A stretch of 64,000 bases of DNA from Bdellovibrionales bacterium (lineage in GTDB: Bacteria; Bdellovibrionota; Bdellovibrionia; Bdellovibrionales; UBA1609). The position numbers and the translations under genes are program-made. Shown here in pieces: positions 5,766 to 33,022 of the stretch (its first letter is position 1; every line of letters begins with the position of its first letter). The notes under the pieces are model-generated. The model saw nothing but the letters and a program-made list of their open reading frames with translations. It was not told where the DNA came from and made no database searches. The DNA lies in assembly GCA_050246815.1 (NCBI GenBank), contig JBFWVI010000008.1, forward strand, positions 1,973 to 65,972, in the 5' to 3' direction.

Positions 5766-5993
5766 ATGCTGGTTCTGACAAGAAAACTAGGCGAAAGTAT
5801 CGCCATCGACGATCACATCAAAATTCGCGTGGTTCAAATCAAAGGTAAACAAGTCCGTTTGGGTATCGAAGCGCCAAAGGACACCAAAATTCATCGCGAA
5901 GAAGTTTACCAAGCCATTCAAAACCAGAACCAAGAATCTTCGACCACCGCTCCAGACAGTGCCCGTGCGGTTTCTAAGCTTTTAAAGCCCTAA
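5766..5993 (+). CDS. csrA: Carbon storage regulator CsrA
   Basis: [12 protein letters not shown]...VRLGIEAPK...IHREE signature. Confidence 0.97.
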
Positions 5994-6100: not shown

Positions 6101-6637
6101 ATGAAAGTCCAAACGTCCAGATTTGGGGTGGTCGAGATCGGCAACGATGACTTGATCGAGTTTCCGGAAGGGCTCCTGGGCTTCAATCATTTGCGCAAGT
6201 TTGTTTTGCTGGACGATCCCACCGACGACATTTTTGCTTGGTTGCAAAGCTGCGAAGAGGCATCCATCGCCTTTCCCGTGCTTGAGCCTGAACTTTTTGC
6301 CGGTCAATATCATGTGCAGCTGACTAAACATGATTTAGAGGCTTTGAAGTTGCCTTTGGGTGAAGGTTTTAGAACCTTTATGGTGATCACCATCCCGCAG
6401 GACCCGACCCAAATGACGGCCAATATGAAGGCTCCCTTGGTGATCAACGTCAACCGCCGCCTTGGTCGCCAGTGCGTGTTGCAAGACAATCAATTGGCTA
6501 TTCGTGAGCCGATTTTCGCTAAGCTGCAGCAGCGCGTGGTGCAAAATCCGCAAGTGCCGATCAAAAGCCAGGGCCGTGAGCCCAAAATGCCAATGCGCCA
6601 AGCTCCGGTTCGGGGGCCTGAATCTTCGGCTGAATAA
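6101..6637 (+). CDS. fliW: Flagellar assembly factor / CsrA antagonist FliW
   Basis: TSRFG, FPEGLLGF, WLQS and MTANMKAP motifs; start moved to ATG 6101. Confidence 0.95.
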   Translation: MKVQTSRFGVVEIGNDDLIEFPEGLLGFNHLRKFVLLDDPTDDIFAWLQSCEEASIAFPVLEPELFAGQYHVQLTKHDLEALKLPLGEGFRTFMVITIPQDPTQMTANMKAPLVINVNRRLGRQCVLQDNQLAIREPIFAKLQQRVVQNPQVPIKSQGREPKMPMRQAPVRGPESSAE

Positions 6638-23285: not shown

Positions 23286-23391
23286 CTTTTTAATATTTAC
23301 TCAAGTCTATAAAATATCTTTTTATTTCAATAGTTTATAATTTTTTTCTGTGTCTCAATGTTGGAAAATAACGCAAAGCGACAGAATGTGC

Positions 23392-23418
23392 TTAAGTTAT
23401 AACTCAATGCGTCGAAAA
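23392..23418 (+). promoter_or_regulatory. Sigma28 promoter of fliC1
   Basis: TTAAGTTA-N11-GTCGAAAA versus consensus TAAAGTTT-N11-GCCGATAA. Confidence 0.6.
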
Positions 23419-23523
23419 GTTATAGGACTGCTGAAACGGATCTTAAGTCTTGTGTCTGTGGGCACCGCTTGTGGTGACCGGTCTGGGGAGGCCGGTGAAA
23501 CGCGCAAGCAGGAGGGTGCGTTT

Positions 23524-24351
23524 GTGTCATTTCGAATCAGTACCAACGTCGCGTCGTTAGCGGCGCAACGAAATCTGGGAAACTCCCAAAGAGCCACTGA
23601 AAAAGCGCTACTGGCCCTTTCATCAGGGTCCAGGATCAACCGCGCCTCTGACGATGCCGCCGGCTTTGCCATTGCCGAAAGCTTGCGTGGGCAATTGAGT
23701 GGCGTGAAGCAAGCTAAGAAAAATGCCGACACAGCGACATCCTTTATTCAAACCGCCGAGGGCGGACTTTCTGAGCAGAACAATATTTTAATCCGCTTGC
23801 GCGAGCTGGCAGTTTACTCGGCCAGCGACACTGTCGGCGATGAAGAGCGCGGCTATTTGAACATGGAATTCCAGCAGCTATCGGCGGAATTTGATCGCAT
23901 AGCGCGCTCAACGCGCTATGGGAATAAACAGCTGCTGACTGGTAACGGGGATGAACACACCTTTCAGATCGGCGCGTACCGAGGTGAAGAGAACGAAGTG
24001 AGTTTTAAACTCGACGCCAACACCACCGCGAGTGAGGTGGGTATTTCTGGTTTGTCGATCGACGATCAAGATAGTGCGACGGATGTTCTTGAAGACCTTG
24101 ATGAGGGCTTGCAAAAGGTGGCCTCGGCTCGGGCCTCGTTCGGCGCTATGCAGTCGCGCTTGCAACACGCGTCTGATCACTTGGCGGTGCAGATTGAAAA
24201 CGTCTCGGCCGCCCGATCGCAGATCGTGGACGCCGACATTGCCGAAGAAGCAGCTAATCTGGCGCAAAACCAGATCATTCAAGACGCCGGCATCGCTGTC
24301 TTGGCTCAGGCCAACGTGAACACCTCTCGCGTAGCGCGGCTGATTCAGTAA
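23524..24351 (+). CDS. fliC: Flagellin (fliC1, 275 aa)
   Basis: GTG start after AGGAGG; FRISTN, LSSGSRINRASDDAAG and GAMQSRL motifs. Confidence 0.95.
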   Translation: MSFRISTNVASLAAQRNLGNSQRATEKALLALSSGSRINRASDDAAGFAIAESLRGQLSGVKQAKKNADTATSFIQTAEGGLSEQNNILIRLRELAVYSASDTVGDEERGYLNMEFQQLSAEFDRIARSTRYGNKQLLTGNGDEHTFQIGAYRGEENEVSFKLDANTTASEVGISGLSIDDQDSATDVLEDLDEGLQKVASARASFGAMQSRLQHASDHLAVQIENVSAARSQIVDADIAEEAANLAQNQIIQDAGIAVLAQANVNTSRVARLIQ

Positions 24352-24395
24352 CTAGACCTTCGTCTTGGTTTTTGTTTTAAGTGATGGGCGGGCTT

Positions 24396-24424
24396 GGGCG
24401 GTTCTTTGTAAGAACCGCCTTTTT
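24396..24424 (+). terminator. Intrinsic terminator after fliC1
   Basis: GGGCGGTTCT/AGAACCGCCT stem followed by a T run. Confidence 0.75.
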
Positions 24425-24556
24425 AATTTTAAAGCCCACAAGTTCAACATCTCCGGATTGATAACGCGCCAAGTTATAAAATAAATTTTATTCAATAAAG
24501 CCCATCCCTTTCAAGCACAAGATGTGTCGCGTCATAAACTGGACTAGACCAAGGTC

Positions 24557-24583
24557 TAAAGCTTCCTAGACCAAAGCCGAGAA
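24557..24583 (+). promoter_or_regulatory. Sigma28 promoter of fliC2
   Basis: TAAAGCTT-N11-GCCGAGAA. Confidence 0.85.
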
Positions 24584-24590
24584 GTTAAGC

Positions 24591-24818
24591 GAACACGTTG
24601 GAGCACCTCGGGACTCATCCGTTTCAGCAGTCACTGTAAATGGATTAGAACCGAACCAAGTATCGTGAGGAGGGGCAGTCACCCCCTCTCGCGAGAACCT
24701 CCAGCAAAACATAATTAACCAAGACTCGGATGTCGCGGATGTGCGTCTTATAGCCGGTTGGCTGTGGGTCGACGCATGTTTTGATCCTCACGGTCGGGGA
24801 AAGAACGTTGGAGGTTCT
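24591..24818 (+). promoter_or_regulatory. Long structured 5' leader of fliC2
   Basis: Two hairpins with CAGUCA loops, a 12-bp anti-SD helix (24694-24705/24807-24818) and GGA motifs. Confidence 0.7.
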
Positions 24819-25649
24819 ATGGGCTTAAGAATCAATACTAACGTTGCCTCAATCGGAGCGCAGCGGGTATTAACGAAGCAGCAACAACGCTTGGAGCATT
24901 CGCAACAAGCATTGGCTTCAGGAACACGTATCGTTAAAGCAGCCGATGATGCTGCCGGCTTGGCCATCTCAGAAAACATCAAGGGCCAAATGGTCGGTAT
25001 CAAAATGGCTCGTAACAACTCATACAACGCACAATCGTTGATTCAGGTCAGCGAGGGCGGATTGAACGAAATCAACAACATCTTGATTCGTTTGCGCGAA
25101 CTGGGTGTGCAAGCGGCCTCGGACACAGTCAGCGATGTTGAGCGTGAATTTTTGGATCAGGAAGCGCAGCAATTGCGTATGGAGTCGGATCGGATCGCGC
25201 GTTCGACACGTTTTGGTAACAAAACTTTGCTGGATGGTTCAGGCGAAGAGTTTGAATACCATGTCGGCCCATTTGCCGATGAAGATGAAAACGTCATTCG
25301 CTATCAAATCTCGGCTGATGCCACCAACAGCACCCTGGGCATCGATGGCGTCGGAGTGTCAGATAAAGACAGCGCTCGCGACACTTTAAGTTCGGTGGAC
25401 GAAGCTTTAGTGAAAATCGGTAAAATGCGCGCCGACTTCGGTGCCGTGCAAAGTCGATTGCAGACCACCACGAGCAATTTGGACATTCAATACGAGAACT
25501 TGTCCGCCGCAAAATCACGTATTTCGGATGCCGACGTGGCTTACGAGTCTTCAGAGATGGCTTCGTCGCAAATATTGCAAAGCGCTTCAGTGGCCGTGTT
25601 GGCGCAAGCCAATCAAAACGGCTCCTTCGCGCTGCGCTTGTTAAGCTAA
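24819..25649 (+). CDS. fliC: Flagellin (fliC2, 276 aa)
   Basis: MGLRINTNV, KAADDAAGLAI and GAVQSRL; ATG 24819 after GGAGG. Confidence 0.96.
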   Translation: MGLRINTNVASIGAQRVLTKQQQRLEHSQQALASGTRIVKAADDAAGLAISENIKGQMVGIKMARNNSYNAQSLIQVSEGGLNEINNILIRLRELGVQAASDTVSDVEREFLDQEAQQLRMESDRIARSTRFGNKTLLDGSGEEFEYHVGPFADEDENVIRYQISADATNSTLGIDGVGVSDKDSARDTLSSVDEALVKIGKMRADFGAVQSRLQTTTSNLDIQYENLSAAKSRISDADVAYESSEMASSQILQSASVAVLAQANQNGSFALRLLS

Positions 25650-25847
25650 ATTATTTCATCAGTCTTGTGAGGCTCGGCCGCACCTTGTGCGGCCGGGACT
25701 AAATCAGCTTTTTTGAGGACTCAAGATGCGGTCCTCTGTATCGCGATGCAAATGTTTTTTAAACGTTTTGAGTTTTAGACAGGTAGCCCACAGCATCCTG
25801 TCTTAAGCCCGCCCTGGGGTCGCCCCACGAACCCCAGGGTTTTTTTT
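25650..25847 (+). ncRNA. Structured ~200-nt 3' UTR of fliC2, candidate 3'UTR-derived sRNA
   Basis: Three hairpins before the terminator; one loop displays GCCCACAGC complementary to flagellin leaders. Confidence 0.45.
25811..25847 (+). terminator. Intrinsic terminator after fliC2 3' UTR
   Basis: GCCCTGGGGT/ACCCCAGGGT stem followed by a T run. Confidence 0.85.
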
Positions 25848-25887
25848 AAGCGGCGTCGACACTTCCTCAACCTCTCTTTTAAGACTT

Positions 25888-26502
25888 TTATTTTTTAACG
25901 AAGGTGGCTTTTTTGGCGTCGTTGACGCGAACGAGTTCGTAGCTTTTGGAGTTGAGCACTTTGAGCGTGAATTTGTAGTTGCTGCTGGTGGTGCCCTCGC
26001 AGAAATTGTCTTTGCAGGTCATTTCAACGCCGCCGCCGCAGTTGATAAAAGTGACGCTGACGTTGCTTAGGACACTGTTGTTGTAAGCGGTTTTGATTCT
26101 CTGGTCGCAGAAATAACGGGCATTGTCGGTGTATTCGCCGTCTTCAAGAACAACGGGGGGAGCGACACTCGTGCAGACCTGACCGGCCAATAAATCCGCG
26201 GTGCTGGCGATCATTTTTTTAAGGTCGCGGCAGACCACGTCGAAATCGCCATCGGCCCGGCGTTGCAACGATAGAATACCCGAGGGCTTTGAGGTCTTTT
26301 TGTTGGGGCAAACGTTGTTCAGTTCCAAATCCAGATCGGTCACGGTCTCACGATTGCCGTTGGTGCAAACCACGTCATAGGTGCCGTCGGCCTTTTGTTG
26401 CATCACCGCAACTTCATCGATCGAAAGAATATCAAAATCGGCTTGTGCCGCGACGGCAAAAAACAGAGCGGAGCTGAGCAGGCTATAAATAAAAAATCGC
26501 AT
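25888..26502 (-). CDS. Secreted Cys-containing hypothetical protein
   Basis: Signal peptide ending AQA; internal duplication QQKADGTYDVVC / QRRADGDFDVVC. Confidence 0.75.
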   Translation of the reverse strand: MRFFIYSLLSSALFFAVAAQADFDILSIDEVAVMQQKADGTYDVVCTNGNRETVTDLDLELNNVCPNKKTSKPSGILSLQRRADGDFDVVCRDLKKMIASTADLLAGQVCTSVAPPVVLEDGEYTDNARYFCDQRIKTAYNNSVLSNVSVTFINCGGGVEMTCKDNFCEGTTSSNYKFTLKVLNSKSYELVRVNDAKKATFVKK

Positions 26503-26726
26503 ATTGAGTCCTTTGTTTGTTGAGCAACGTCAGTGTTGCGAACGTAGTCTTTTAAGGAAGCCGGTCGAAGTCAAAAAAACTGGTTCACTCAGGTGCCAAA
26601 TCTGTTTGGCCCTGTTCGGGCAAGGCTTTCACTTGTTTTTGGTCTCAAATCGAGACGCCCTTAAAATGAGACGGCGGTATGGGTAAGACTTCATATTTGC
26701 CGGATGAAATATGACGAAAAGCACCT

Positions 26727-27740
26727 ATGGGCGAGAGAAAACTGAAGCTTGTCCCTCAAGGCGAAGAGGCAGCCGTCAAGGAATCTCATGCAATAGATAG
26801 TGAGTTCCTTGCGGTGCCTCCGGAACAGATTTTATCCCGTGCGCATGCGCTTTCGGATCTCTTCGTTCGCTTAAGCAGCGGCCGTCTGGTCAAGGTGGCC
26901 CACAAAGACGAAAAAATCGACCGCGAACGCATCGAAAGAATGGCCCACAAAAACGTCAATGAACTCTACGTCATGCGCCACGATTTTTCAGGGGTGATTC
27001 AAAATCTGATTTTGCATATGCGAGAAAATGCCACGGCCCCCACAGACAACGACAAATCGATCAATGAGTATTTTCAGGTGGCCCAATCGGTTTTGACTGA
27101 AGTGTCCAAGCTGCCGATTAGCGACGAAGCGATCGGGCATGCCATCGAAGTCACGCAAGAGCTGGCCACGCGCCTCAACGAAGTGGACGATATTGCAAAG
27201 GGCCTTAAATTGATTTTAGGTCTTGGCGAAAAGCATTCACGACATGCAATGGGCTGTGTTGTGGTCTCCAATTGGCTGGCCCGTGCCATGCGCTGGAGTG
27301 CTCCTCGCGTCCTGCAGCCGTTGACCTTGGGCGCCTTCATGCATGATGTCGGCCTGAAGGAGCTGCCGGTCGAGCTGCTGAATAAAGAGCGTATGCATTA
27401 TAGCGCTGAAGAAGTGGCGCTTTACGAAACACATCCCACGCGGGGCGTGATGATTTTGCGCAGCTTCAACGCCATGCCGGCCGAAGTGCTGCAAATCGTG
27501 CAAGAGCACCACGAAATGCCCAATGGGCAAGGCTTTCCAAACCACATCCGCGGCGAGCGCATGTTCCCATTGGCCAAAATCGTGTCCTTTGCCAACCTGC
27601 TGTCTCACGAAATGCTCGATGCCTTTCTTGTGCATAAATCTTTCTCGGTCGAGGGGATGATTGAACGCATCGACTTGATTTATAAGACCATGTACGGCAG
27701 CGAGATGCACAAAGCGGCCAAATCCATCTTCAAAAAATAG
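26727..27740 (+). CDS. HD-GYP domain protein (c-di-GMP phosphodiesterase family)
   Basis: MHDVG, HP and EHHEMPNGQGFP motifs. Confidence 0.85.
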   Translation: MGERKLKLVPQGEEAAVKESHAIDSEFLAVPPEQILSRAHALSDLFVRLSSGRLVKVAHKDEKIDRERIERMAHKNVNELYVMRHDFSGVIQNLILHMRENATAPTDNDKSINEYFQVAQSVLTEVSKLPISDEAIGHAIEVTQELATRLNEVDDIAKGLKLILGLGEKHSRHAMGCVVVSNWLARAMRWSAPRVLQPLTLGAFMHDVGLKELPVELLNKERMHYSAEEVALYETHPTRGVMILRSFNAMPAEVLQIVQEHHEMPNGQGFPNHIRGERMFPLAKIVSFANLLSHEMLDAFLVHKSFSVEGMIERIDLIYKTMYGSEMHKAAKSIFKK

Positions 27741-27876
27741 GGATCAAATATTTTCTTTTTAAGGCCGCGTGTCGGCAACGCTCCGAGTGGCGGACGCCGT
27801 TATATTTCTTTTTCCATTCTATTGCAGTCAGATAAGGCTTTAGAATTGCATTTTTTCCTCCGCGTAGGAGGAAAAA

Positions 27877-28413
27877 ATGTTTAATTCCCTAAAATATGCT
27901 AAAAAATTAGAAGCCGCTGGCTATTCCCGCGAACAAGCGGAAATGCATGTGCAAATTTTGAGTGAGATTATGGAAAGCAACTTGGCCTCAAAAGAAGAGA
28001 TGAAAGACCTCACCGCGGTGACGCGGCAAAGCTTTAAAGACCATACTTTTGAAATGCAGCAGCTTTTTAAAGAACATACTCATGCTATGGATCAAAGGTT
28101 TAAAGAATACACTCATGCGATGGATCAAAGGTTTAAAGAATACACGCATACTGCAGATGAAAGGTTTAAAGAGTACACGCATACTGCGGATGAAAGGCTT
28201 AAAGAGTACACGCATACTGCGGACCAAAGATTGAAAGACCACAACATTGAAACAAATCAGAAAATTGAAGAGCTTCATCAAAAGATAGATCGCGTGCGCA
28301 TCGAATTAAGCGGCGAAATCAAAATTTCCGAACAGCGTATGACGGTCAAGCTTGGCACAATTGTTTCAATCGCGATTGGTTTGGCGGTAACTCTGGTCAA
28401 GCTTGTGGCCTGA
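27877..28413 (+). CDS. DUF1640/CCDC90-family coiled-coil protein with C-terminal TM anchor
   Basis: MFNSLKYAKKLEAAGYSREQAE head, LASKE neck, repeat stalk, KLGTIV tail; AGGAGG RBS. Confidence 0.85.
   Translation: MFNSLKYAKKLEAAGYSREQAEMHVQILSEIMESNLASKEEMKDLTAVTRQSFKDHTFEMQQLFKEHTHAMDQRFKEYTHAMDQRFKEYTHTADERFKEYTHTADERLKEYTHTADQRLKDHNIETNQKIEELHQKIDRVRIELSGEIKISEQRMTVKLGTIVSIAIGLAVTLVKLVA
28033..28230 (+). repeat. Six tandem 33-bp units encoding 11-aa repeats
   Basis: Units such as TTTAAAGAATACACTCATGCGATGGATCAAAGG (FKEYTHAMDQR); a partial seventh follows. Confidence 0.95.
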
Positions 28414-28594
28414 TTGATCGAATTCAGAACTTCCTGGCCGCAGGCCTCAGGTCTAGGGGCTGTGACCTCGACCTTTGGTCTTGGCGACCAAGGTCCTACC
28501 GCACCGACTCCATACTTATTATTATTCCCACGGCAAAATCCCAAACTAAGGTCCAGTTCTACACCGACCATGGTCCAGTTTGACTGGACTCGAC

Positions 28595-28621
28595 TTTAGT
28601 TCGCCCCGACCTGGCCGAAAG
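28595..28621 (+). promoter_or_regulatory. Sigma28 promoter of fliC3
   Basis: TTTAGTTC-N11-GCCGAAAG, near-identical to the fliC4 promoter. Confidence 0.75.
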
Positions 28622-28628
28622 GTTTGTT

Positions 28629-28846
28629 AGAAGCAAGAGCGGATCTTGAAAGTCCGCCAGGCGAGAGTTCATCACTTGAGTGACTGCTTGTGATGAAATC
28701 GCTACCAGCCTGGCATGACCCATCAAAATTTGCTCCAACGTGTTCAACCAAGCGCAAAGGATGCGCGCACCCGGGGTGCGGCTCTGTGGGTAGAGCCCCT
28801 TCGGGTAGCGAAACGGATTTTGAACAAACCCAAAGGAGGACCTTTT
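28629..28846 (+). promoter_or_regulatory. Long structured 5' leader of fliC3
   Basis: Nested hairpins, a GUGACUGC loop, an AAGGA hairpin (28752-28766) and a GUGGGU loop (28786-28791). Confidence 0.7.
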
Positions 28847-29680
28847 ATGGGTCTCAGGGTCACAACCAATATTCCATCGATTAGCGCGCAGCGCACGATG
28901 GCCAGTTCACAGCGCGAAATTCAAAAGAGTTTCTCGCAGCTTTCTTCCGGTTCGCGGATCACCAAGGCAGCTGATGATGCAGCCGGCTTGTCGATCAGCG
29001 AAACTTTAAAATCCACCGTTCGAGGTTACGTGCAAGCGCAACGTAACGCCAACGATGGGATCTCGATGGTGCAAGTCTCTGAAGGGGGCTTGGGCGAGAT
29101 CAGCAACATCTTGACCCGCATGCGCGAGTTGGGTGTGCAAGCCGCCTCGGACACGGTCGGCGATGTCGAACGTGGCTTTATCGACAAAGAGGTTCAACAG
29201 TTGAAAAACGAAATGGAGCGTATCGCGAAAACCACTCGTTGGGGTTCGCAGAATCTGCTCGATGGCAGCGGTGAAGAATACGGCTTCCAGGTCGACATCA
29301 ACAATGACGACTTCAATGACCGTATTAGCTTCGACGCCAGCCAACAAGACGCCACAATCGGCACCTTGGGTGTTGATGGCTTTGATTTTTCGACCAAAGA
29401 TGGTGCACGTGATGCCCTTGAAATGTTAGAAACATCGCAACGCCAAGTGAACGGTTATCGTGCCAACTTAGGCGCGATTCAAAACCGCCTGATCTCGACC
29501 ACCGAAAACTTAGGTGTCGCGATCGAAAACTTCTCGGCAGCCAATTCGCGAGTTCGCGATGCGGACGTCGCGCAGTCTTCAGCTGAACTGGCTCGCAACA
29601 ACATCTTGCTGCAAGCCAACGTGGGTGTCTTGGCGCAAGCCAATCAGCAACCCGGTTTAGCAATGCGTTTGGTCTCTTAA
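28847..29680 (+). CDS. fliC: Flagellin (fliC3, 277 aa)
   Basis: MGLRVTTN start after AAAGGAGG; LSSGSRITKAADDAAG and LGAIQNRL. Confidence 0.97.
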   Translation: MGLRVTTNIPSISAQRTMASSQREIQKSFSQLSSGSRITKAADDAAGLSISETLKSTVRGYVQAQRNANDGISMVQVSEGGLGEISNILTRMRELGVQAASDTVGDVERGFIDKEVQQLKNEMERIAKTTRWGSQNLLDGSGEEYGFQVDINNDDFNDRISFDASQQDATIGTLGVDGFDFSTKDGARDALEMLETSQRQVNGYRANLGAIQNRLISTTENLGVAIENFSAANSRVRDADVAQSSAELARNNILLQANVGVLAQANQQPGLAMRLVS

Positions 29681-29703
29681 TTTATAATTTGATTTGTAAA
29701 GTG

Positions 29704-29769
29704 TTGGAGGGGTCTCCTTTGCCTCTCCGGTACCTACCTACCCAAGGAGGTTTTCCTCCTTGGGGTACT
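29704..29769 (+). ncRNA. Two-hairpin 3' UTR RNA motif, copy 1
   Basis: Hairpin with CUCCUUU loop, then a bulged hairpin (UACCUAC bulge, UUUU loop); covaries with 31000-31066. Confidence 0.7.
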
Positions 29770-29812
29770 ACATAGACTAGCCCGGACCGTCCTGAAACCA
29801 GACTGAACCGCA

Positions 29813-29842
29813 GTCGGTGAGATCAAGGTCGGTGAGATCAAG
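29813..29842. repeat. Perfect 15-bp tandem duplication
   Basis: GTCGGTGAGATCAAG x2, with degenerate similar words downstream. Confidence 0.9.
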
Positions 29843-29947
29843 GGCTGGCCCCCATCGAACGACCAGGTATGATACGTCGAAGGTCGTGAAATCCAAGATC
29901 AACGTCCAGAAATAGCACGCCTTCAGTCCAGAAACGCTGGACGCGAC

Positions 29948-29974
29948 TTCAGTTGGCCCCGACCTCGCCGAATA
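29948..29974 (+). promoter_or_regulatory. Sigma28 promoter of fliC4
   Basis: TTCAGTTG-N11-GCCGAATA. Confidence 0.75.
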
Positions 29975-30143
29975 ACTAGGCGTGAGTTGCATGGAACCCA
30001 GACGGTCAAGTCCAGGTCCAGGTGATCACAGGGTAACAAATATTAATAACCAGCATTACGGATAATGCCTTCTTCCGCTGGCCCAGTAGGTAGGGACATG
30101 AGGATGGAATACGGACGTTTTCGCCAACACAAGGAGAAGTACC

Positions 30144-30977
30144 ATGGGATTACGAGTTACAACGAACGTCGCGTCGATCAACGCACAGAAGTCGATGGCT
30201 TCCAGTCAGCGTGAGATCCAACGCAGTTTCGCACAATTGTCATCAGGTTCACGCATCACCAAAGCCGCCGACGACGCAGCGGGGCTTTCGATCAGCGAAA
30301 CGCTGAAGTCCACCATCCGCGGTTACACGCAGGCGCAACGTAACGCCAACGACGGTATCTCGATGGTGCAAGTCGCAGAGGGTGGCCTGGGCGAGATCAG
30401 CAATATCTTGACCCGCCTGCGGGAGTTGGGCGTGCAAGCGGCCTCAGACACGGTGGGTGATGTCGAGCGCGGCTTCATCGACAAAGAGGTTCAACAATTG
30501 AAAAATGAAATGGATCGTATCGCGCAATCGACACGTTTCGGCAAATCGAAACTCTTAAACGGCGATGGCGAAGAATACGCTTTCCAAGTCGATATCAATA
30601 ACAACGACTTTGAGGATCGAATTAACTTTAATGCCGCAGAATTGAAAGCGACCTCAGACGCTTTGGGTGTGGATGGATTTGATTTCTCGGATAAGCTTAA
30701 TGCTCGCGAAGGTTTGGAAGTGTTAGAAGACGCTCAGCGCATGGTGAACGGAATGCGTGCGAACCTTGGCGCAATTCAAAACCGCCTGGTGTCGACCACA
30801 GAAAACTTAGGCGTGGCAATCGAGAACTTCTCGGCTGCGAACGCTCGTGTTCGCGACACAGACGTGGCGCAATCTTCGGCAGAACTGGCCCGCAACAACA
30901 TCTTGTTGCAAGCCAACGTGGGTGTTTTGGCTCAAGCCAATGCCATGCCGCAAGCCGCTTTGCGCCTGATTGGTTAA
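30144..30977 (+). CDS. fliC: Flagellin (fliC4, 277 aa)
   Basis: Close paralog of fliC3; AAGGAG RBS. Confidence 0.97.
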   Translation: MGLRVTTNVASINAQKSMASSQREIQRSFAQLSSGSRITKAADDAAGLSISETLKSTIRGYTQAQRNANDGISMVQVAEGGLGEISNILTRLRELGVQAASDTVGDVERGFIDKEVQQLKNEMDRIAQSTRFGKSKLLNGDGEEYAFQVDINNNDFEDRINFNAAELKATSDALGVDGFDFSDKLNAREGLEVLEDAQRMVNGMRANLGAIQNRLVSTTENLGVAIENFSAANARVRDTDVAQSSAELARNNILLQANVGVLAQANAMPQAALRLIG

Positions 30978-30999
30978 TATTAAAATTGAATTTGAGAAT

Positions 31000-31066
31000 T
31001 GAGGCGGTGGCTTCTCCGCTGCTTCAGTACTTACCTACCCGGGCGGGTTTTCTCGCCCGGGGTGCT
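31000..31066 (+). ncRNA. Two-hairpin 3' UTR RNA motif, copy 2
   Basis: 11-bp hairpin with CUUCU loop, then a bulged hairpin (UACCUAC bulge, UUUU loop). Confidence 0.7.
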
Positions 31067-31152
31067 ATTTGGGGTTTGAGATGTAAGTCTTTTGTCTAGT
31101 TTCTGGATTCTAGCCTCTTCAGGCGACGGAAAGTTGCCGAATCCAAGACTGG

Positions 31153-31524
31153 ATGAATGTAAAAAGTTTGACTCCCAATTTAAGCGCGCTAGACCCTCGA
31201 CTTCGCACCGAGGCCAAAGACAATGTGCGCCTGCAAAACAGCGGCGACCGCGATGCGGATGGCCGTCGGCAGCAGAATGAGCCTGAACACAAGCGCCACT
31301 TGAACGAATCCGAGTTTGAAACAGCCTTGGAAACCTTAAAGAAAAACGCCGCCGTTACCGCTCACAACCTACAGATTCGAGTTGAACAACATGAAGATCA
31401 CCGGGTCATCTTCATCGAGGATCGGGCCGGGCAAGTGATTCGCCGTCTGTCAGAGGCCGACTTGTGGCTGGTCACTCGAGAAAATGATCGTCCCACGGGA
31501 AAAATTTTAGATAAAGCCGGCTAG
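31153..31524 (+). CDS. FlaG-like protein
   Basis: Located between flagellin and fliD; VIFIEDRAGQVIRRL...GKILDK resembles the FlaG C-terminus; GCCGAATC at 31136. Confidence 0.65.
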   Translation: MNVKSLTPNLSALDPRLRTEAKDNVRLQNSGDRDADGRRQQNEPEHKRHLNESEFETALETLKKNAAVTAHNLQIRVEQHEDHRVIFIEDRAGQVIRRLSEADLWLVTRENDRPTGKILDKAG

Positions 31525-31651: not shown

Positions 31652-33022
31652 TTGCCAATTACGTTTGGTGGAATTAACACAGGCTTACCCCCGAACATCG
31701 TCGACCAGTTGGTCGAAGCGGAACGCATTCCTATTCGCAATATGGAAGCGCAAAAGACCAAACAAGAAACCAAACTCAAATTGGTTCAGGATCTTGAAAG
31801 TAAATTGGCGGCGCTCAATGGTTCTTTGGCAGGTTTAGCGTCGGCGAAGGGTTTCAAAGATATTAAGCTAAACTCGGGCAATCCAAATGTGATCACCGGG
31901 GCGGTTGATCCCGACGCCAGCGTCACGGGCAGTTGGAATGTTGAGGTGGTCGAACTGGCGCAAAAGGCCGCGGCGATCACAAATGGTTTTCCCGACAAAG
32001 ATAAAACTCAAATCGGCACGGGCTACTTTCGCTTTCATACAGCGGACGGCAAAAAAGATGTTTACGTGAACGGTAAAAACAACACTCTTGAAAAGGCGGC
32101 CGAAACCATCAACGCCTCAGGCATCGGCGTGCGAGCAACCGTCTTGAATGATCGTAAAGACCCCGACAATCCCTACCGACTGATGATTTCTGGCGAAGCC
32201 GTTGGTGGCGATAACCGCATTGATTATCCGACGCTTTATTTCTTGGACGGCGATCAGGATCTTTACTTCGATGAAGAGCGCGAGGCAAAGAACGGTCGTG
32301 TGAAGGTGGATGGCTTTGAGTTTGAAGTCAGCGACAACAAAGTCAACGATGCCATCCCAGGTGTGACGCTAGAGTTGCGCCAAGCCGCACCTGGGCAGCA
32401 AGTGAATATCTCGGTCAAAGAAGATATGGAAATCGTAACCGGCAAAGTGAAGACATTTGTAGACGGTTTGAACGCTGTGCTGGGCTTTATTCAGCAACAA
32501 AACAGAATGGACAAAGACACCGACACCTCACAGACCTTGGGCGGCGACAGCATGCTGCGTTCGATCCAAAATCGCTTAGAGAGGTTGGTGCAGGATCCGC
32601 AGTACGGAATTGACGGACCGATCAAGCGCTTGAATCAAATCGGCATCACCTTTAACCGTGGCGGCACCGTGGATTACAAGGAAGAGGCCTTCAACCAAGT
32701 TTTGGCGCGGGACCCCGTTGCGGTACAAAAGTTTTTGGCCGGAGATGGTTTTAACACGGGCTTTATTAGTGCCGTGAAGCGCGAAGTGCAGACCGTGTTG
32801 AACGGACAGTTCGGGCAGGTGGCGATACGAAAAAAGGGCATGCAGGATCGCATCAACCAAATGGACGATCGGATTGCAATGAAAGAACGTCAGTTGCAAA
32901 CCAAAGAAGAAAGCTTACGGCGCAAGTTTAGCCGTTTGGAAGAAACCATGTCGCGACTTAAGTCCCAGGGTGGGGCTTTGGGCGGAATGGGCGGCGGCGG
33001 CGGTGGCCTGGCGCAAGGATGA
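31652..33022 (+). CDS. fliD: Filament cap protein
   Basis: TTG start after GGAGG; FGGINTGL...QLVEAERIP, IPGVTLEL and LRRKFSRLE motifs. Confidence 0.95.
   Translation: MPITFGGINTGLPPNIVDQLVEAERIPIRNMEAQKTKQETKLKLVQDLESKLAALNGSLAGLASAKGFKDIKLNSGNPNVITGAVDPDASVTGSWNVEVVELAQKAAAITNGFPDKDKTQIGTGYFRFHTADGKKDVYVNGKNNTLEKAAETINASGIGVRATVLNDRKDPDNPYRLMISGEAVGGDNRIDYPTLYFLDGDQDLYFDEEREAKNGRVKVDGFEFEVSDNKVNDAIPGVTLELRQAAPGQQVNISVKEDMEIVTGKVKTFVDGLNAVLGFIQQQNRMDKDTDTSQTLGGDSMLRSIQNRLERLVQDPQYGIDGPIKRLNQIGITFNRGGTVDYKEEAFNQVLARDPVAVQKFLAGDGFNTGFISAVKREVQTVLNGQFGQVAIRKKGMQDRINQMDDRIAMKERQLQTKEESLRRKFSRLEETMSRLKSQGGALGGMGGGGGGLAQG

What the first reader, a model, noticed from the sequence alone, without database searches (positions are those of the whole stretch)
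23419..31066. Candidate RNA-RNA pairing network wiring four flagellin mRNAs through their UTRs
Seen: each flagellin has its own sigma28-like promoter and a roughly 100-230 nt structured leader. Leaders and trailers carry complementary words, mostly displayed in loops or bulges: leader2-leader3, trailer3/4 to their own SD and leader loop, trailer2 to leaders 1-3, and weakly leader1-leader4 (detailed in separate findings). Known: CsrA/FliW sets total flagellin level; the 3'-derived FlaX sRNA tunes flagellin paralogs in Vibrio cholerae; the S. aureus icaR 3' UTR pairs with its own SD. Inference: here the mRNAs themselves may form a circuit setting the order or stoichiometry of flagellins in a multi-flagellin filament. 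I know of no description of this in Bdellovibrionota.
Basis: partly seen in the sequence, partly recalled or inferred. Interest (0 to 1): 0.92.

Follow-up and report, generated by a model that had tools for sequence, protein, structure and literature searches.

The report
Flagellin mRNAs that pair with each other
The untranslated ends of four neighbouring flagellin genes carry matching complementary sequences that change together from genome to genome, so these messenger RNAs have probably been selected to base-pair with one another and with their own ribosome-binding sites, a way of coordinating flagellin production that my literature searches did not find described.

Summary
The window has four flagellin genes, each behind a sigma-28-type promoter, with predicted leaders of 101-231 nt.

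In the window alone, three UTR pairs exceed all 200 shuffles:
- leader1 x leader2, 16 bp
- leader2 x leader3, 15 bp
- trailer1 x trailer2, 13 bp

In relatives of the same order the paired boxes covary genome by genome. The count is permutations reaching the own-pair mean:
- leader1 x leader2: 0 of 50000 (14 genomes)
- leader2 x leader3: 0 of 50000 (23 genomes)
- trailer2 hairpin x leader1: 4 of 20000 (13 genomes)
- F3/F4 3'UTR hairpin loop x own Shine-Dalgarno: 0 of 50000 (21 genes)
- F3/F4 3'UTR linker x own leader loop: 85 of 50000 (21 genes)

Sequence predictions written down before fetching further relatives were largely met.

Three further motif pairs are conserved and class-specific but show no covariation. 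Leader1-leader4 is not supported.

csrA, fliW, fliA and RNase III are present; Hfq and ProQ were not found. There is no Rfam match, and four literature searches found no description.

No RNA data exist for this metagenome-assembled genome. Transcript ends, cis versus trans action and the regulatory outcome are therefore inferred. Best reading: a conserved RNA-RNA pairing circuit among flagellin mRNAs, with F2 as hub.

The parts
23392..23418 (+). Sigma-28-like promoter of F1 (-35, 11-nt spacer, -10)
   Evidence: Pattern match. In relatives the -10 octamer always lies 7 nt before the leader1 seed (read).
23426..23441 (+). Leader1 5'-terminal seed; pairs with leader2 hairpin 1
   Evidence: 16 bp, all Watson-Crick, duplex -31.7 kcal/mol. 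Covaries in 14 genomes, 0 of 50000 permutations.
23456..23463 (+). Leader1 box CUGUGGGC; complementary to the trailer2 hairpin loop
   Evidence: 8 bp, -17.7 kcal/mol. YUGUGGGY is found in 6 of 8 F1 leaders. T2 x L1 is own-genome specific, 4 of 20000.
23524..24351 (+). Flagellin F1
   Evidence: Pfam Flagellin_N/C.
24386..24398 (+). Trailer1 motif GGGCGGGC(UU), just before the F1 terminator; complementary to the trailer2 linker
   Evidence: 13 bp, -27.5 kcal/mol. The motif is in 10 of 15 F1 trailers and 0 of 68 trailers of other classes. No covariation.
24396..24420 (+). F1 intrinsic terminator hairpin followed by a T run
   Evidence: 11 pairs.
24557..24583 (+). Sigma-28-like promoter of F2
   Evidence: The spacing of 7 nt from the -10 to box A is constant in the 15 F2 leaders where both are visible.
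24591..24605 (+). Leader2 box A at the predicted 5' end; pairs with leader3 box B, and in cis with the anti-box
   Evidence: 15 bp, -28.3 kcal/mol. Covaries in 23 genomes, 0 of 50000. The P1 helix with the anti-box appears in the RNAalifold consensus.
24614..24648 (+). Leader2 hairpin 1; its 5' arm plus loop (24617-24632) is the target of the leader1 seed, and its loop motif matches the leader3 loop
24660..24698 (+). Leader2 hairpin 2, with the same loop motif (CAGUCAC)
   Evidence: Compensatory stem changes in 17 relatives.
24694..24705 (+). Leader2 internal anti-box / anti-SD
   Evidence: Pairs with the F2 SD region (12 bp, -21.9 kcal/mol) or with box A (7 bp, -11.1 kcal/mol). Consensus P1 helix.
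24761..24769 (+). Leader2 copy of the (G)CUGUGGG(U) box
   Evidence: 9 bp with the trailer2 loop. No covariation signal.
24807..24818 (+). F2 Shine-Dalgarno region, a near repeat of box A
24819..25649 (+). Flagellin F2
25777..25803 (+). Trailer2 hairpin with the loop motif GCCCACAG (25786-25793)
   Evidence: MFE structure; coordinates. The motif is in 11 of 29 F2 trailers, against 1 of 33 F3/4 and 0 of 15 F1 trailers.
25802..25814 (+). Trailer2 linker (CUUAAGCCCGCCC), before the terminator
   Evidence: With at most 1 mismatch it is in 21 of 29 F2 trailers and 0 of 54 others. Pairs with the trailer1 motif.
25811..25848 (+). F2 terminator hairpin and T run
28595..28621 (+). Sigma-28-like promoter of F3
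   Evidence: The promoter region gives DNA hits in many genera.
28669..28696 (+). Leader3 hairpin with the loop motif (A)GUGACUGC(U) at 28679-28688
   Evidence: 10 bp with the leader2 hairpin 1 loop, -17.4 kcal/mol. Conserved (13 of 35 F3/4 leaders). No covariation.
28731..28745 (+). Leader3 box B, the complement of leader2 box A
28752..28766 (+). Leader3 hairpin with AAGGA in its loop (CsrA-site-like)
   Evidence: MFE structure; sequence. By my reading of the alignment, about half of the 16 relatives have GGA in this loop.
28786..28793 (+). Leader3 hairpin-loop motif GUGGGUAG; pairs with the trailer3 linker
   Evidence: 8 bp, -12.4 kcal/mol. The hairpin is in the consensus. Linker x own leader: 85 of 50000.
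28831..28839 (+). F3 Shine-Dalgarno region
   Evidence: 9 bp with the trailer3 loop, -14.5 kcal/mol.
28847..29680 (+). Flagellin F3
29701..29733 (+). Trailer3 hairpin 1; its loop (29713-29721) is an extended anti-SD
   Evidence: Loop x own SD: 0 of 50000 in 21 genes.
29734..29764 (+). Trailer3 linker (CUACCUAC) and a terminator-like hairpin with no clear T run
29948..29974 (+). Sigma-28-like promoter of F4
30053..30068 (+). Leader4 hairpin with CGGA in its loop (CsrA-site-like)
30086..30094 (+). Leader4 loop motif GUAGGUAGG; pairs with the trailer4 linker
   Evidence: 9 bp, -13.6 kcal/mol.
30133..30140 (+). F4 Shine-Dalgarno region
   Evidence: 8 bp with the trailer4 loop, -13.6 kcal/mol.
30144..30977 (+). 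Flagellin F4
30993..31061 (+). Trailer4: hairpin 1 (anti-SD loop 31010-31017), linker 31030-31038, terminator hairpin 31038-31061

Best explanation
The leaders and trailers of these sigma-28-driven flagellin mRNAs carry elements that have been selected to base-pair as RNA.

**Contacts that covary:**
1. The first nucleotides of the F1 transcript invade hairpin 1 of the F2 leader.
2. The first nucleotides of the F2 transcript (box A) pair with box B in the F3-type leader.
3. The F2 3'UTR hairpin loop pairs with a box in the F1 leader.
4. In F3/F4-type genes, the 3'UTR hairpin loop is an extended anti-Shine-Dalgarno matched to the gene's own ribosome-binding site.
5. The linker that follows this hairpin matches a hairpin loop in the gene's own leader.

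F2 is the hub of the contacts between genes.

**Inferred working:** the F2 leader is a two-state switch. Its internal anti-box pairs either with box A or with the SD region, so capture of box A or opening of hairpin 1 by another flagellin mRNA would shift F2 translation. The 14-20 bp duplexes may also be cut by RNase III. F3 and F4 would dampen their own translation through 5'-3' pairing of the icaR kind. CsrA/FliW would act on the GGA hairpins and SD regions on top of this.

**Status:** complementarity, conservation and covariation are shown. Transcript ends, cis versus trans action, the sign of regulation and the link to flagellin order are inferred.
For: **Window alone**
- L1 x L2 (16 bp), L2 x L3 (15 bp) and T1 x T2 (13 bp) each beat 200 of 200 dinucleotide shuffles.

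**Own-genome versus other-genome permutations**
- L1 x L2: 14 genomes, own mean helix score 38.5 against 27.5, 0 of 50000. The own partner is best or co-best in 9 of 14.
- L2 x L3/4: 23 genomes, 35.6 against 31.0, 0 of 50000.
- T2 x L1: 13 genomes, 4 of 20000.
- F3/4 trailer hairpin loop x own SD: 21 genes, 17.2 against 14.2, 0 of 50000.
- F3/4 trailer linker x own leader: 85 of 50000.
- The two swapped controls (linker x SD, loop x leader) gave 22119 and 28350 of 50000.
- Whole trailer x own SD: 1 of 50000 in 34 genes.

**Compensatory variants**
- For L2 x L3 they occur at several positions. One genome (G038) has both boxes rewritten yet keeps 15 bp.
- For L1 x L2 the distal half of the duplex differs in nearly every genome.

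**Predictions** written in the notebook before fetching new DNA, checked
- L1 seed: G010, 16 contiguous nt as predicted. G014, 15 nt. G039, 16 bp with 2 G-U. G022, met with a 1-nt bulge.
- Box B: G012, 13 of 14 with the odd position a G-U. G013, 11 nt including the predicted variant. A second G010 gene matched exactly.

**Motif distribution**
- The motifs are strictly class- and strand-specific. For example box A is in 23 of 29 F2 leaders and 0 of 49 others. Box B is in 16 of 35 F3/4 leaders and 0 of 43 others.

**Position and structure**
- Both seeds start 8 nt after the -10 octamer in every relative where both are visible, which places them at the predicted transcript 5' end.
- The RNAalifold consensus of 17 F2 leaders gives the box A:anti-box helix and hairpin 2, with compensatory changes.

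**Genome content**
- Hfq and ProQ were not found in a genome estimated 99% complete; RNase III is present. This fits long, chaperone-independent duplexes.
- fliA, csrA and fliW are present.
Against: - No RNA data exist. The genome is assembled from a metagenome and only DNA runs hold it. Promoters, 5' ends and 3' ends are therefore predictions.
- Strand asymmetry should favour the sense strand if G-U pairs matter, but it is only modest. Sense beats antisense in 6 and 11 genomes, ties in 6 and 7, and loses in 2 and 5.
- Three motif pairs show conservation without covariation: L2 loops x L3 loop (31257 of 50000), T1 x T2 (3395 of 20000) and T2 x L2 or L3 (2452 and 1812 of 20000).
- The 8-9 bp contacts of trailers 3 and 4 are not significant in the window alone.
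- Leader 4 folds no better than its shuffles.
- Relatives are not independent, and the permutation null ignores phylogeny.
- Where a genome has several paralogues the best pair was taken. The same rule was applied to own and other pairs.
- The leader1 seed resembles the 3' arm of leader2 hairpin 1, so part of that match could come from shared descent. The pairing with the hairpin loop and the G038 variant argue against this.
- The regulatory outcome cannot be derived from sequence.
Confidence: 0.7

Rival explanations
1. The pairing species are short RNAs rather than full-length mRNAs. They would be 3'UTR-derived sRNAs (hairpin, single-stranded linker, terminator) released from F1, F2, F3 and F4, and/or prematurely terminated leader fragments. 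These would act in trans on the flagellin leaders, as FlaX and FliX do. The base-pairing is the same, but the molecules and the kinetics differ.
For: The trailers have typical sRNA architecture: a hairpin, an unpaired conserved motif directly before a terminator hairpin, and then a T run in T1, T2 and T4. FlaX is processed from the flaA 3'UTR and represses flaB (PMC11879080, abstract and section titles read). E. coli has sigma-28-dependent UTR-derived sRNAs (PMC10578931, start of the abstract seen in search listings).
Against: Processing cannot be seen without RNA data. The F3/F4 trailer elements match their own gene better than paralogues do, which fits cis action as well as trans. Hfq and ProQ, the usual partners of such sRNAs, were not found.
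Confidence: 0.3
2. The complementary boxes are DNA elements. Either the same double-stranded motifs are used in both orientations as binding sites of a regulator, or they are inverted repeats kept alike by recombination. RNA pairing would then be incidental.
For: At the DNA level each pair is one motif in two orientations. Strand asymmetry is only modest. Three pairs are invariant rather than covarying. Other conserved palindromes lie just upstream of the -35 elements, so DNA-binding regulators probably act at this locus.
Against: At least five different motif pairs would each need a protein. The variable halves of the L1 x L2 duplex differ in nearly every genome, and G038 rewrites both L2 and L3 boxes. 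That does not fit a protein site. The boxes always lie downstream of the promoter, on the sense strand, at the predicted 5' end or in hairpin loops with covarying stems. Inside the helices the non-Watson-Crick pairs are G-U. Repeats of 14-20 bp without flanking homology are short for gene conversion (general knowledge, not tested).
Confidence: 0.07
3. The leaders are ordinary CsrA/FliW-controlled flagellin leaders with GGA sites in a hairpin loop and at the SD. In this view the complementary words have no role of their own.
For: csrA and fliW are adjacent in the same window, at about 5766-5921 and 6155-6514. Leaders 3 and 4 have a hairpin with AAGGA or CGGA in the loop plus an AAGGAG-type SD. 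The three other flagellin genes of the genome also have GGA hairpins in their leaders. The system is established in B. subtilis and C. jejuni (PMC6529632 and PMC4894983, starts of the abstracts seen in the listing).
Against: CsrA control does not explain covarying complementarity between different genes, or between the 3' and 5' ends. Box B, the leader1 seed and the 3'UTR loops contain no GGA. By my reading, only about half of the 16 relatives have GGA in the post-box-B hairpin loop. The two mechanisms can coexist.
Confidence: 0.1
4. The F1-F2 contacts are intramolecular. Read-through past the F1 terminator would give one F1-F2 transcript in which leader1, leader2 and the trailers fold on each other.
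For: F1 and F2 are adjacent on the same strand, here and in most relatives.
Against: F1 ends with a strong intrinsic terminator of 11 pairs plus a T run, and F2 has its own conserved promoter. This cannot apply to L2 x L3: an opposite-strand ORF and two other genes lie between them here, and the distance varies among relatives.
Confidence: 0.1

Closest known systems
icaR mRNA 5'-3' UTR pairing in Staphylococcus aureus (PMC3868564; abstract read)
   Same: A pyrimidine-rich 3'UTR motif pairs with the Shine-Dalgarno region of the same mRNA. In icaR this blocks initiation and creates an RNase III substrate. The F3/F4 trailers carry an anti-SD in a hairpin loop that matches their own SD and its flanks, and RNase III is encoded in the genome.
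   Different: This locus has a second 3'-5' contact (linker to leader loop). The element is conserved and covaries across many genera, and it sits on flagellin paralogues. No experiment exists. The loop motif extends beyond the SD core in a gene-specific way.
FlaX, a flaA 3'UTR-derived sRNA that represses flaB in Vibrio cholerae (PMC11879080; abstract and section titles read)
   Same: RNA from one flagellin gene base-pairs with the mRNA of a paralogue and changes flagellum composition. The F2 trailer hairpin x F1 leader contact is of this type.
   Different: FlaX works with ProQ, and ProQ and Hfq were not found here. At this locus leaders also pair with leaders through 5'-terminal seeds. Several nodes are linked, and processing is unknown.
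hly 5'UTR - prsA2 3'UTR mRNA-mRNA interaction in Listeria monocytogenes (PMC8722363; title and start of abstract seen)
   Same: Two full-length mRNAs pair directly through their UTRs to couple the expression of functionally linked proteins.
   Different: That is a single pair in one species. Here there are at least three intergenic contacts among paralogues, with covariation across an order.
Sigma-28-dependent UTR-derived sRNAs of E. coli flagellar genes (PMC10578931; start of abstract seen)
   Same: RNAs made from UTRs of late flagellar genes feed back on flagellar synthesis by base-pairing.
   Different: Those are Hfq-associated sRNAs with short seeds (recalled, not checked here). Here the duplexes are 13-21 bp and no Hfq was found.
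CsrA-FliW-flagellin partner switch (PMC6529632, PMC4894983; starts of abstracts seen)
   Same: csrA and fliW are present, and the flagellin leaders have GGA in a hairpin loop and at the SD.
   Different: That is a protein-RNA mechanism. It does not account for the complementary covarying boxes, and is probably a parallel layer.

Membership tests
icaR-type 5'-3' UTR self-pairing | A 3'UTR motif complementary to the SD region of the same mRNA | tested here: met
   T3 loop x SD3 is 9 bp and T4 loop x SD4 is 8 bp. The match is own-gene specific: 0 of 50000 permutations in 21 genes.
icaR-type 5'-3' UTR self-pairing | Pairing blocks 30S binding and gives an RNase III substrate | not testable with these tools
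   Only the RNase III gene is shown.
3'UTR-derived sRNA acting on a paralogous flagellin mRNA (FlaX type) | A stable fragment processed from, or terminated within, the flagellin 3'UTR | not testable with these tools
   No RNA runs. Only the sRNA-like architecture is seen.
3'UTR-derived sRNA acting on a paralogous flagellin mRNA (FlaX type) | Base-pairing with the leader of another flagellin gene | tested here: met
   The T2 hairpin x L1 box covaries, 4 of 20000 in 13 genomes.
3'UTR-derived sRNA acting on a paralogous flagellin mRNA (FlaX type) | Dependence on ProQ or Hfq | tested here: not met
   No match to the Hfq or ProQ Pfam models in a genome estimated 99.1% complete.
CsrA-FliW control of flagellin translation | csrA and fliW genes present | tested here: met
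   The two genes are adjacent in this window.
CsrA-FliW control of flagellin translation | Two GGA sites in the leader, one in a hairpin loop and one overlapping the SD | tested here: inconclusive
   Present in L3 and L4. In L2 the GGA lies in box A and in the SD repeat. By my reading, only about half of the 16 relatives have GGA in the loop. Binding was not tested.
Sigma-28 (FliA) promoters | -35 TAAA-type and -10 GCCGATAA-type elements with 11-nt spacing, and fliA present | tested here: met
   Pattern matches upstream of all four genes and of many orthologues. fliA scores over its cut-off. The consensus sequence itself is recalled.
Any Rfam family | A covariance-model match | tested here: not met
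   0 matches at gathering score over the whole window. 0 matches at E up to 1 in 23300-31200.
mRNA-mRNA pairing (hly-prsA2 type) | Complementarity between UTRs of two separately transcribed mRNAs, under selection | tested here: met
   L1 x L2 and L2 x L3 covary, 0 of 50000 each. The genes have separate promoters and terminators.
mRNA-mRNA pairing (hly-prsA2 type) | A measured effect on stability or translation | not testable with these tools

The most novel reading that the evidence does not exclude
This would be a chaperone-independent, multi-node circuit made of the flagellin messenger RNAs themselves. Each transcript's 5'-terminal seed invades the leader of the next paralogue (F1 to F2, F2 to F3). 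The F2 3'UTR reaches back to the F1 leader and 3'UTR. F3 and F4 close on their own ribosome-binding sites. Together these contacts would compute the order and ratio in which flagellin paralogues are translated for a multi-flagellin filament, in an order of predatory bacteria that seems to lack Hfq and ProQ.
Probability: 0.35. Interest if true: 0.92.

Novelty: new variant of a known kind. Interest (0 to 1): 0.85.

Why it matters
Many bacteria build filaments from several flagellins. How the ratio and order of the paralogues is set is largely open beyond transcription and CsrA/FliW.

This locus offers a concrete, testable RNA-level answer: defined 13-21 bp duplexes between named positions of four mRNAs, with natural compensatory variants already in hand.

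It would also be a rare case of a conserved mRNA-mRNA network, found by covariation between separate transcripts. It sits in a lineage without the usual RNA chaperones. It would add several conserved RNA elements that are absent from Rfam: the F2-type leader, the F3-type leader, and the F2- and F3/F4-type 3'UTR elements.

Tried and rejected
**Approaches that failed or were replaced**
- RNAduplex with loops on 100 x 120 nt regions did not discriminate (trailer x leader body p 0.09). I replaced it with an ungapped-helix score.
- MAFFT plus RNAalifold on 13 F3/F4 trailers recovered only the terminator, not hairpin 1. No covariance model was therefore built and no model-based genome search was run.
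- Automatic calling of the trailer element found 21 of 37 F3/F4-type genes and included some wrong calls. I kept them as they were, so as not to bias the test.

**Tests that gave no support**
- Whole trailer x leader -125..-25: 8810 of 50000. Trailer x leader -95..-35: 1280 of 50000.
- Loop-loop L2 x L3 covariation: none.
- T1 x T2, T2 x L2 and T2 x L3/4 covariation: none.

**Searches that did not help**
- Genome-wide search of the boxes in the window's own genome: the other hits lie inside coding regions and look like chance. The exception is an exact copy of box A behind a sigma-28-like -10, antisense to the end of a greB-like gene. That copy is not conserved in 40 relatives; only the coding part gave hits.
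Only a few records were labelled Bdellovibrionales, Pseudobdellovibrionaceae or Bdellovibrio, so I drew no distribution from it.
- RNA evidence: no RNA holder listed.
Supplements of papers were not opened.
- Literature: four searches found no description of flagellin mRNA pairing in Bdellovibrionota. This is a statement about those searches only.
- No protein fold, complex or atlas tools were needed.

Full report
**What is there**

The region holds four flagellin genes on the + strand, each with Flagellin_N and Flagellin_C:
- F1, 23524-24351
- F2, 24819-25649
- F3, 28847-29680
- F4, 30144-30977

A small ORF and fliD (31652-33022) follow. Between F2 and F3 lie an opposite-strand ORF, an HD-domain gene and a coiled-coil ORF. 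The genome has three more flagellin genes on other contigs. It also has csrA and fliW, side by side in this window, fliA and RNase III. Hfq and ProQ models found nothing in a genome rated 99.1% complete.

Each of the four genes has a sigma-28-like promoter match, ending at 23418, 24583, 28621 and 29974. This gives predicted leaders of 101, 231, 221 and 165 nt. Leaders 2 and 3 and all trailers fold better than their shuffles. Leader 1 does so marginally and leader 4 does not. Rfam has no match, even at E up to 1.

**Is the complementarity more than chance in the window?**

I scored the best ungapped helix for all 28 pairs of the eight UTRs against 200 dinucleotide shuffles each. Three pairs exceeded every shuffle:
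- leader1 x leader2: 16 bp, 23426-23441 x 24617-24632
- leader2 x leader3: 15 bp, 24591-24605 x 28731-28745
- trailer1 x trailer2: 13 bp, 24386-24398 x 25802-25814

The 8-9 bp matches of trailers 3 and 4 with their own leaders, and of trailer 2 with the leaders, exist but are not significant on their own. Leader1 x leader4 is at chance (p 0.79).

**Relatives**

DNA searches in 40 relatives of the same order gave flagellin loci in 30 and 26 genomes, the window's own among them. I extracted 89 flagellin genes with their flanks, later 101, and classed them by best match to the seven flagellins of this genome.

The UTRs turned out to contain short, strongly conserved boxes in otherwise variable sequence. 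The boxes are strictly specific to one class and one strand:

| Box | Found in | Not found in |
|---|---|---|
| Box A | 23 of 29 F2 leaders | 0 of 49 other leaders |
| Box B (complement of box A) | 16 of 35 F3/4 leaders | 0 of 43 other leaders |
| GCAGUCAC | 16 of 29 F2 leaders | 0 of 49 other leaders |
| GUGACUGC (complement of GCAGUCAC) | 13 of 35 F3/4 and 2 of 8 F1 leaders | (1 of 29 F2 leaders) |
| AAGCCCGCCC, at most 1 mismatch | 21 of 29 F2 trailers | other trailers |
| GGGCGGGC | 10 of 15 F1 trailers | other trailers |

F3/F4-type trailers in many genera share one layout: a hairpin with a variable stem and a CUCC-containing loop, then a linker of the UACCUACC type, then a terminator-like hairpin.

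**Covariation between partners**

If two boxes pair, the partner from the same genome should fit better than the same box from other genomes. Permuting genome labels gave these results.

| Contact | Sample | Own vs other mean score | Permutations reaching own mean |
|---|---|---|---|
| L1 x L2 | 14 genomes | 38.5 vs 27.5 | 0 of 50000 |
| L2 x L3/4 | 23 genomes | 35.6 vs 31.0 | 0 of 50000 |
| T2 x L1 | 13 genomes | 26.5 vs 23.5 | 4 of 20000 |
| F3/4 trailer hairpin loop x own SD | 21 genes | 17.2 vs 14.2 | 0 of 50000 |
| F3/4 trailer linker x own leader (-95..-35) | 21 genes | 16.4 vs 14.5 | 85 of 50000 |
| Control: linker x SD | 21 genes | 9.14 vs 9.08 | 22119 of 50000 |
| Control: loop x leader | 21 genes | 12.48 vs 12.55 | 28350 of 50000 |

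For the F3/F4 tests, the hairpin loop and linker were called from the trailer alone, without looking at the leaders.

The variants are easy to read in the outputs. In L2 x L3 both sides change together at several positions, and one genome (G038) has both boxes rewritten yet keeps 15 bp. In L1 x L2 the half of the duplex that covers the stem of hairpin 1 differs in nearly every genome and the seed follows it.

**Out-of-sample check**

Before fetching more DNA I wrote down what the unseen leaders should contain. I then fetched 15 further pieces.

| Prediction | Result |
|---|---|
| L1 seed, G010 | 16 contiguous nt as predicted |
| L1 seed, G014 | 15 nt |
| L1 seed, G039 | 16 bp, both deviations being G-U |
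| L1 seed, G022 | met with a 1-nt bulge |
| Box B, G012 | 13 of 14, the odd position a G-U |
| Box B, G013 | 11 nt, including the predicted variant |
| Box B, second G010 gene | exact match |
| Box B, G016 | the piece fetched held no F3-type leader with the box |

**What did not covary**

- L2 loops x L3 loop: 31257 of 50000
- T1 x T2: 3395 of 20000
- T2 x L2: 2452 of 20000
- T2 x L3/4: 1812 of 20000

These pairs are conserved complementary motifs, which is suggestive, but the data do not tell pairing apart from a shared motif.

**RNA or DNA?**

At the DNA level each pair is one motif in two orientations. I therefore compared the helices read on the sense and on the antisense strands:

| Contact | Sense better | Equal | Antisense better |
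|---|---|---|---|
| L1 x L2 | 6 | 6 | 2 |
| L2 x L3 | 11 | 7 | 5 |

This leans towards RNA but is modest. Stronger arguments for RNA are these:
- The variable, genome-specific halves of the duplexes do not fit a protein site.
- The boxes always lie downstream of the promoter on the sense strand.
- They sit in hairpin loops whose stems covary.
- Both seeds begin 8 nt after the -10 octamer in every relative where both can be seen, which is the predicted 5' end of the transcript.

**How it may work**

The RNAalifold consensus of 17 F2 leaders pairs box A with an internal anti-box, enclosing hairpins 1 and 2. In this window the anti-box (24694-24705) pairs with the F2 SD region, a near repeat of box A, over 12 bp (-21.9 kcal/mol). 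It pairs with box A over 7 bp (-11.1 kcal/mol). The F2 leader thus looks like a two-state switch.

Box B of the F3 leader (15 bp, -28.3 kcal/mol) and the F1 seed (16 bp, -31.7 kcal/mol, longer and more perfect than the hairpin it opens) would shift that balance. Alternatively they could create RNase III substrates. The direction of the effect cannot be derived from sequence.

The F3 and F4 trailers would fold back on their own SD and leader loop, as in icaR (PMC3868564, abstract), or act as 3'UTR-derived sRNAs, as FlaX does (PMC11879080, abstract). The GGA hairpins and SD regions suggest CsrA/FliW as a parallel layer. All of this paragraph is inference.

**Distribution**

A strict pattern for the 5' part of the F2 leader matched 18 of 401 genomes sampled from the phylum. 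All 18 are in the same order: 12 of 27 in the window's family, G000 aside, and none of the genomes searched outside that order. The pattern is strict, so this is a lower bound.

**Novelty**

Four literature searches found no description in Bdellovibrionota. The closest known systems are:
- icaR
- FlaX
- hly-prsA2 (PMC8722363)
- the sigma-28-dependent sRNAs of E. coli (PMC10578931)
- CsrA-FliW

The kind of system, base-pairing regulatory RNA including mRNA-mRNA pairing, is known. A conserved multi-node set of contacts among flagellin paralogues, with 5'-terminal seeds and apparently no Hfq or ProQ, was not found in those searches.

**Limits**

- There are no transcript data.
- The relatives are unnamed and are related to one another, and the permutation null ignores phylogeny.
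- I chose the regions and the score. Some windows, such as leader -95..-35, were chosen after seeing where own-gene helices fell, though own and other pairs were treated alike.
- No covariance models or R-scape could be run.
- Supplements of the papers were not seen and are not needed for any claim made here.

Noticed in passing
window 28563-28579 and 29926-29942 (also 24543-24556 before F2): A conserved inverted repeat (GTCCAG, 5 nt, CTGGAC) lies directly upstream of the -35 of the F3 and F4 promoters, with further GGTCCAG/AGTCTAG-like copies upstream. The promoter-proximal stretch (window about 28536-28636) gave DNA hits at 73-85% identity in at least ten other genera, more conserved than much of the coding sequence. 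It is probably a binding site of a transcription factor.
   Followed up: no
G000 contig C2, about 47865 on the minus strand (outside the window): An exact 14-nt copy of box A lies 4 nt after a sigma-28-like -10, antisense to the 3' end of a greB-like gene. About 0.03 such copies are expected by chance in this genome (my own arithmetic, not a tool result). In 40 relatives only the coding part gave hits. It could be a lineage-specific sRNA that competes for box B, or chance.
   Followed up: partly
window about 5766-5921 and 6155-6514: csrA and fliW are adjacent, 17 kb upstream of the flagellin genes.
   Followed up: no
G000 contigs C22 (two genes) and C5 (one gene): The three other flagellin genes have none of the boxes. 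Their leaders carry several hairpins with GGA in the loop and long AAGGAGG-type SD regions. They look like plain CsrA targets.
   Followed up: partly
L056:1437-1503 (G008): One relative has a minimal 67-nt F2 leader consisting of little more than box A, a short hairpin, the anti-box and the SD. It would be a handy natural minimal switch for experiments.
   Followed up: no
window 27877-28413: This ORF has head-to-tail 33-nt repeats that encode a repeated ...FKEYTHxxDxR... unit. It gives only a weak CCDC90-like match, below the Pfam cut-off.
   Followed up: no
window 29741-29775: The hairpin after the F3 trailer linker has no T run behind it, here and in several relatives, unlike the T1, T2 and T4 terminators. 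It may be a stabilising 3' hairpin or a processing product end rather than an intrinsic terminator.
   Followed up: no
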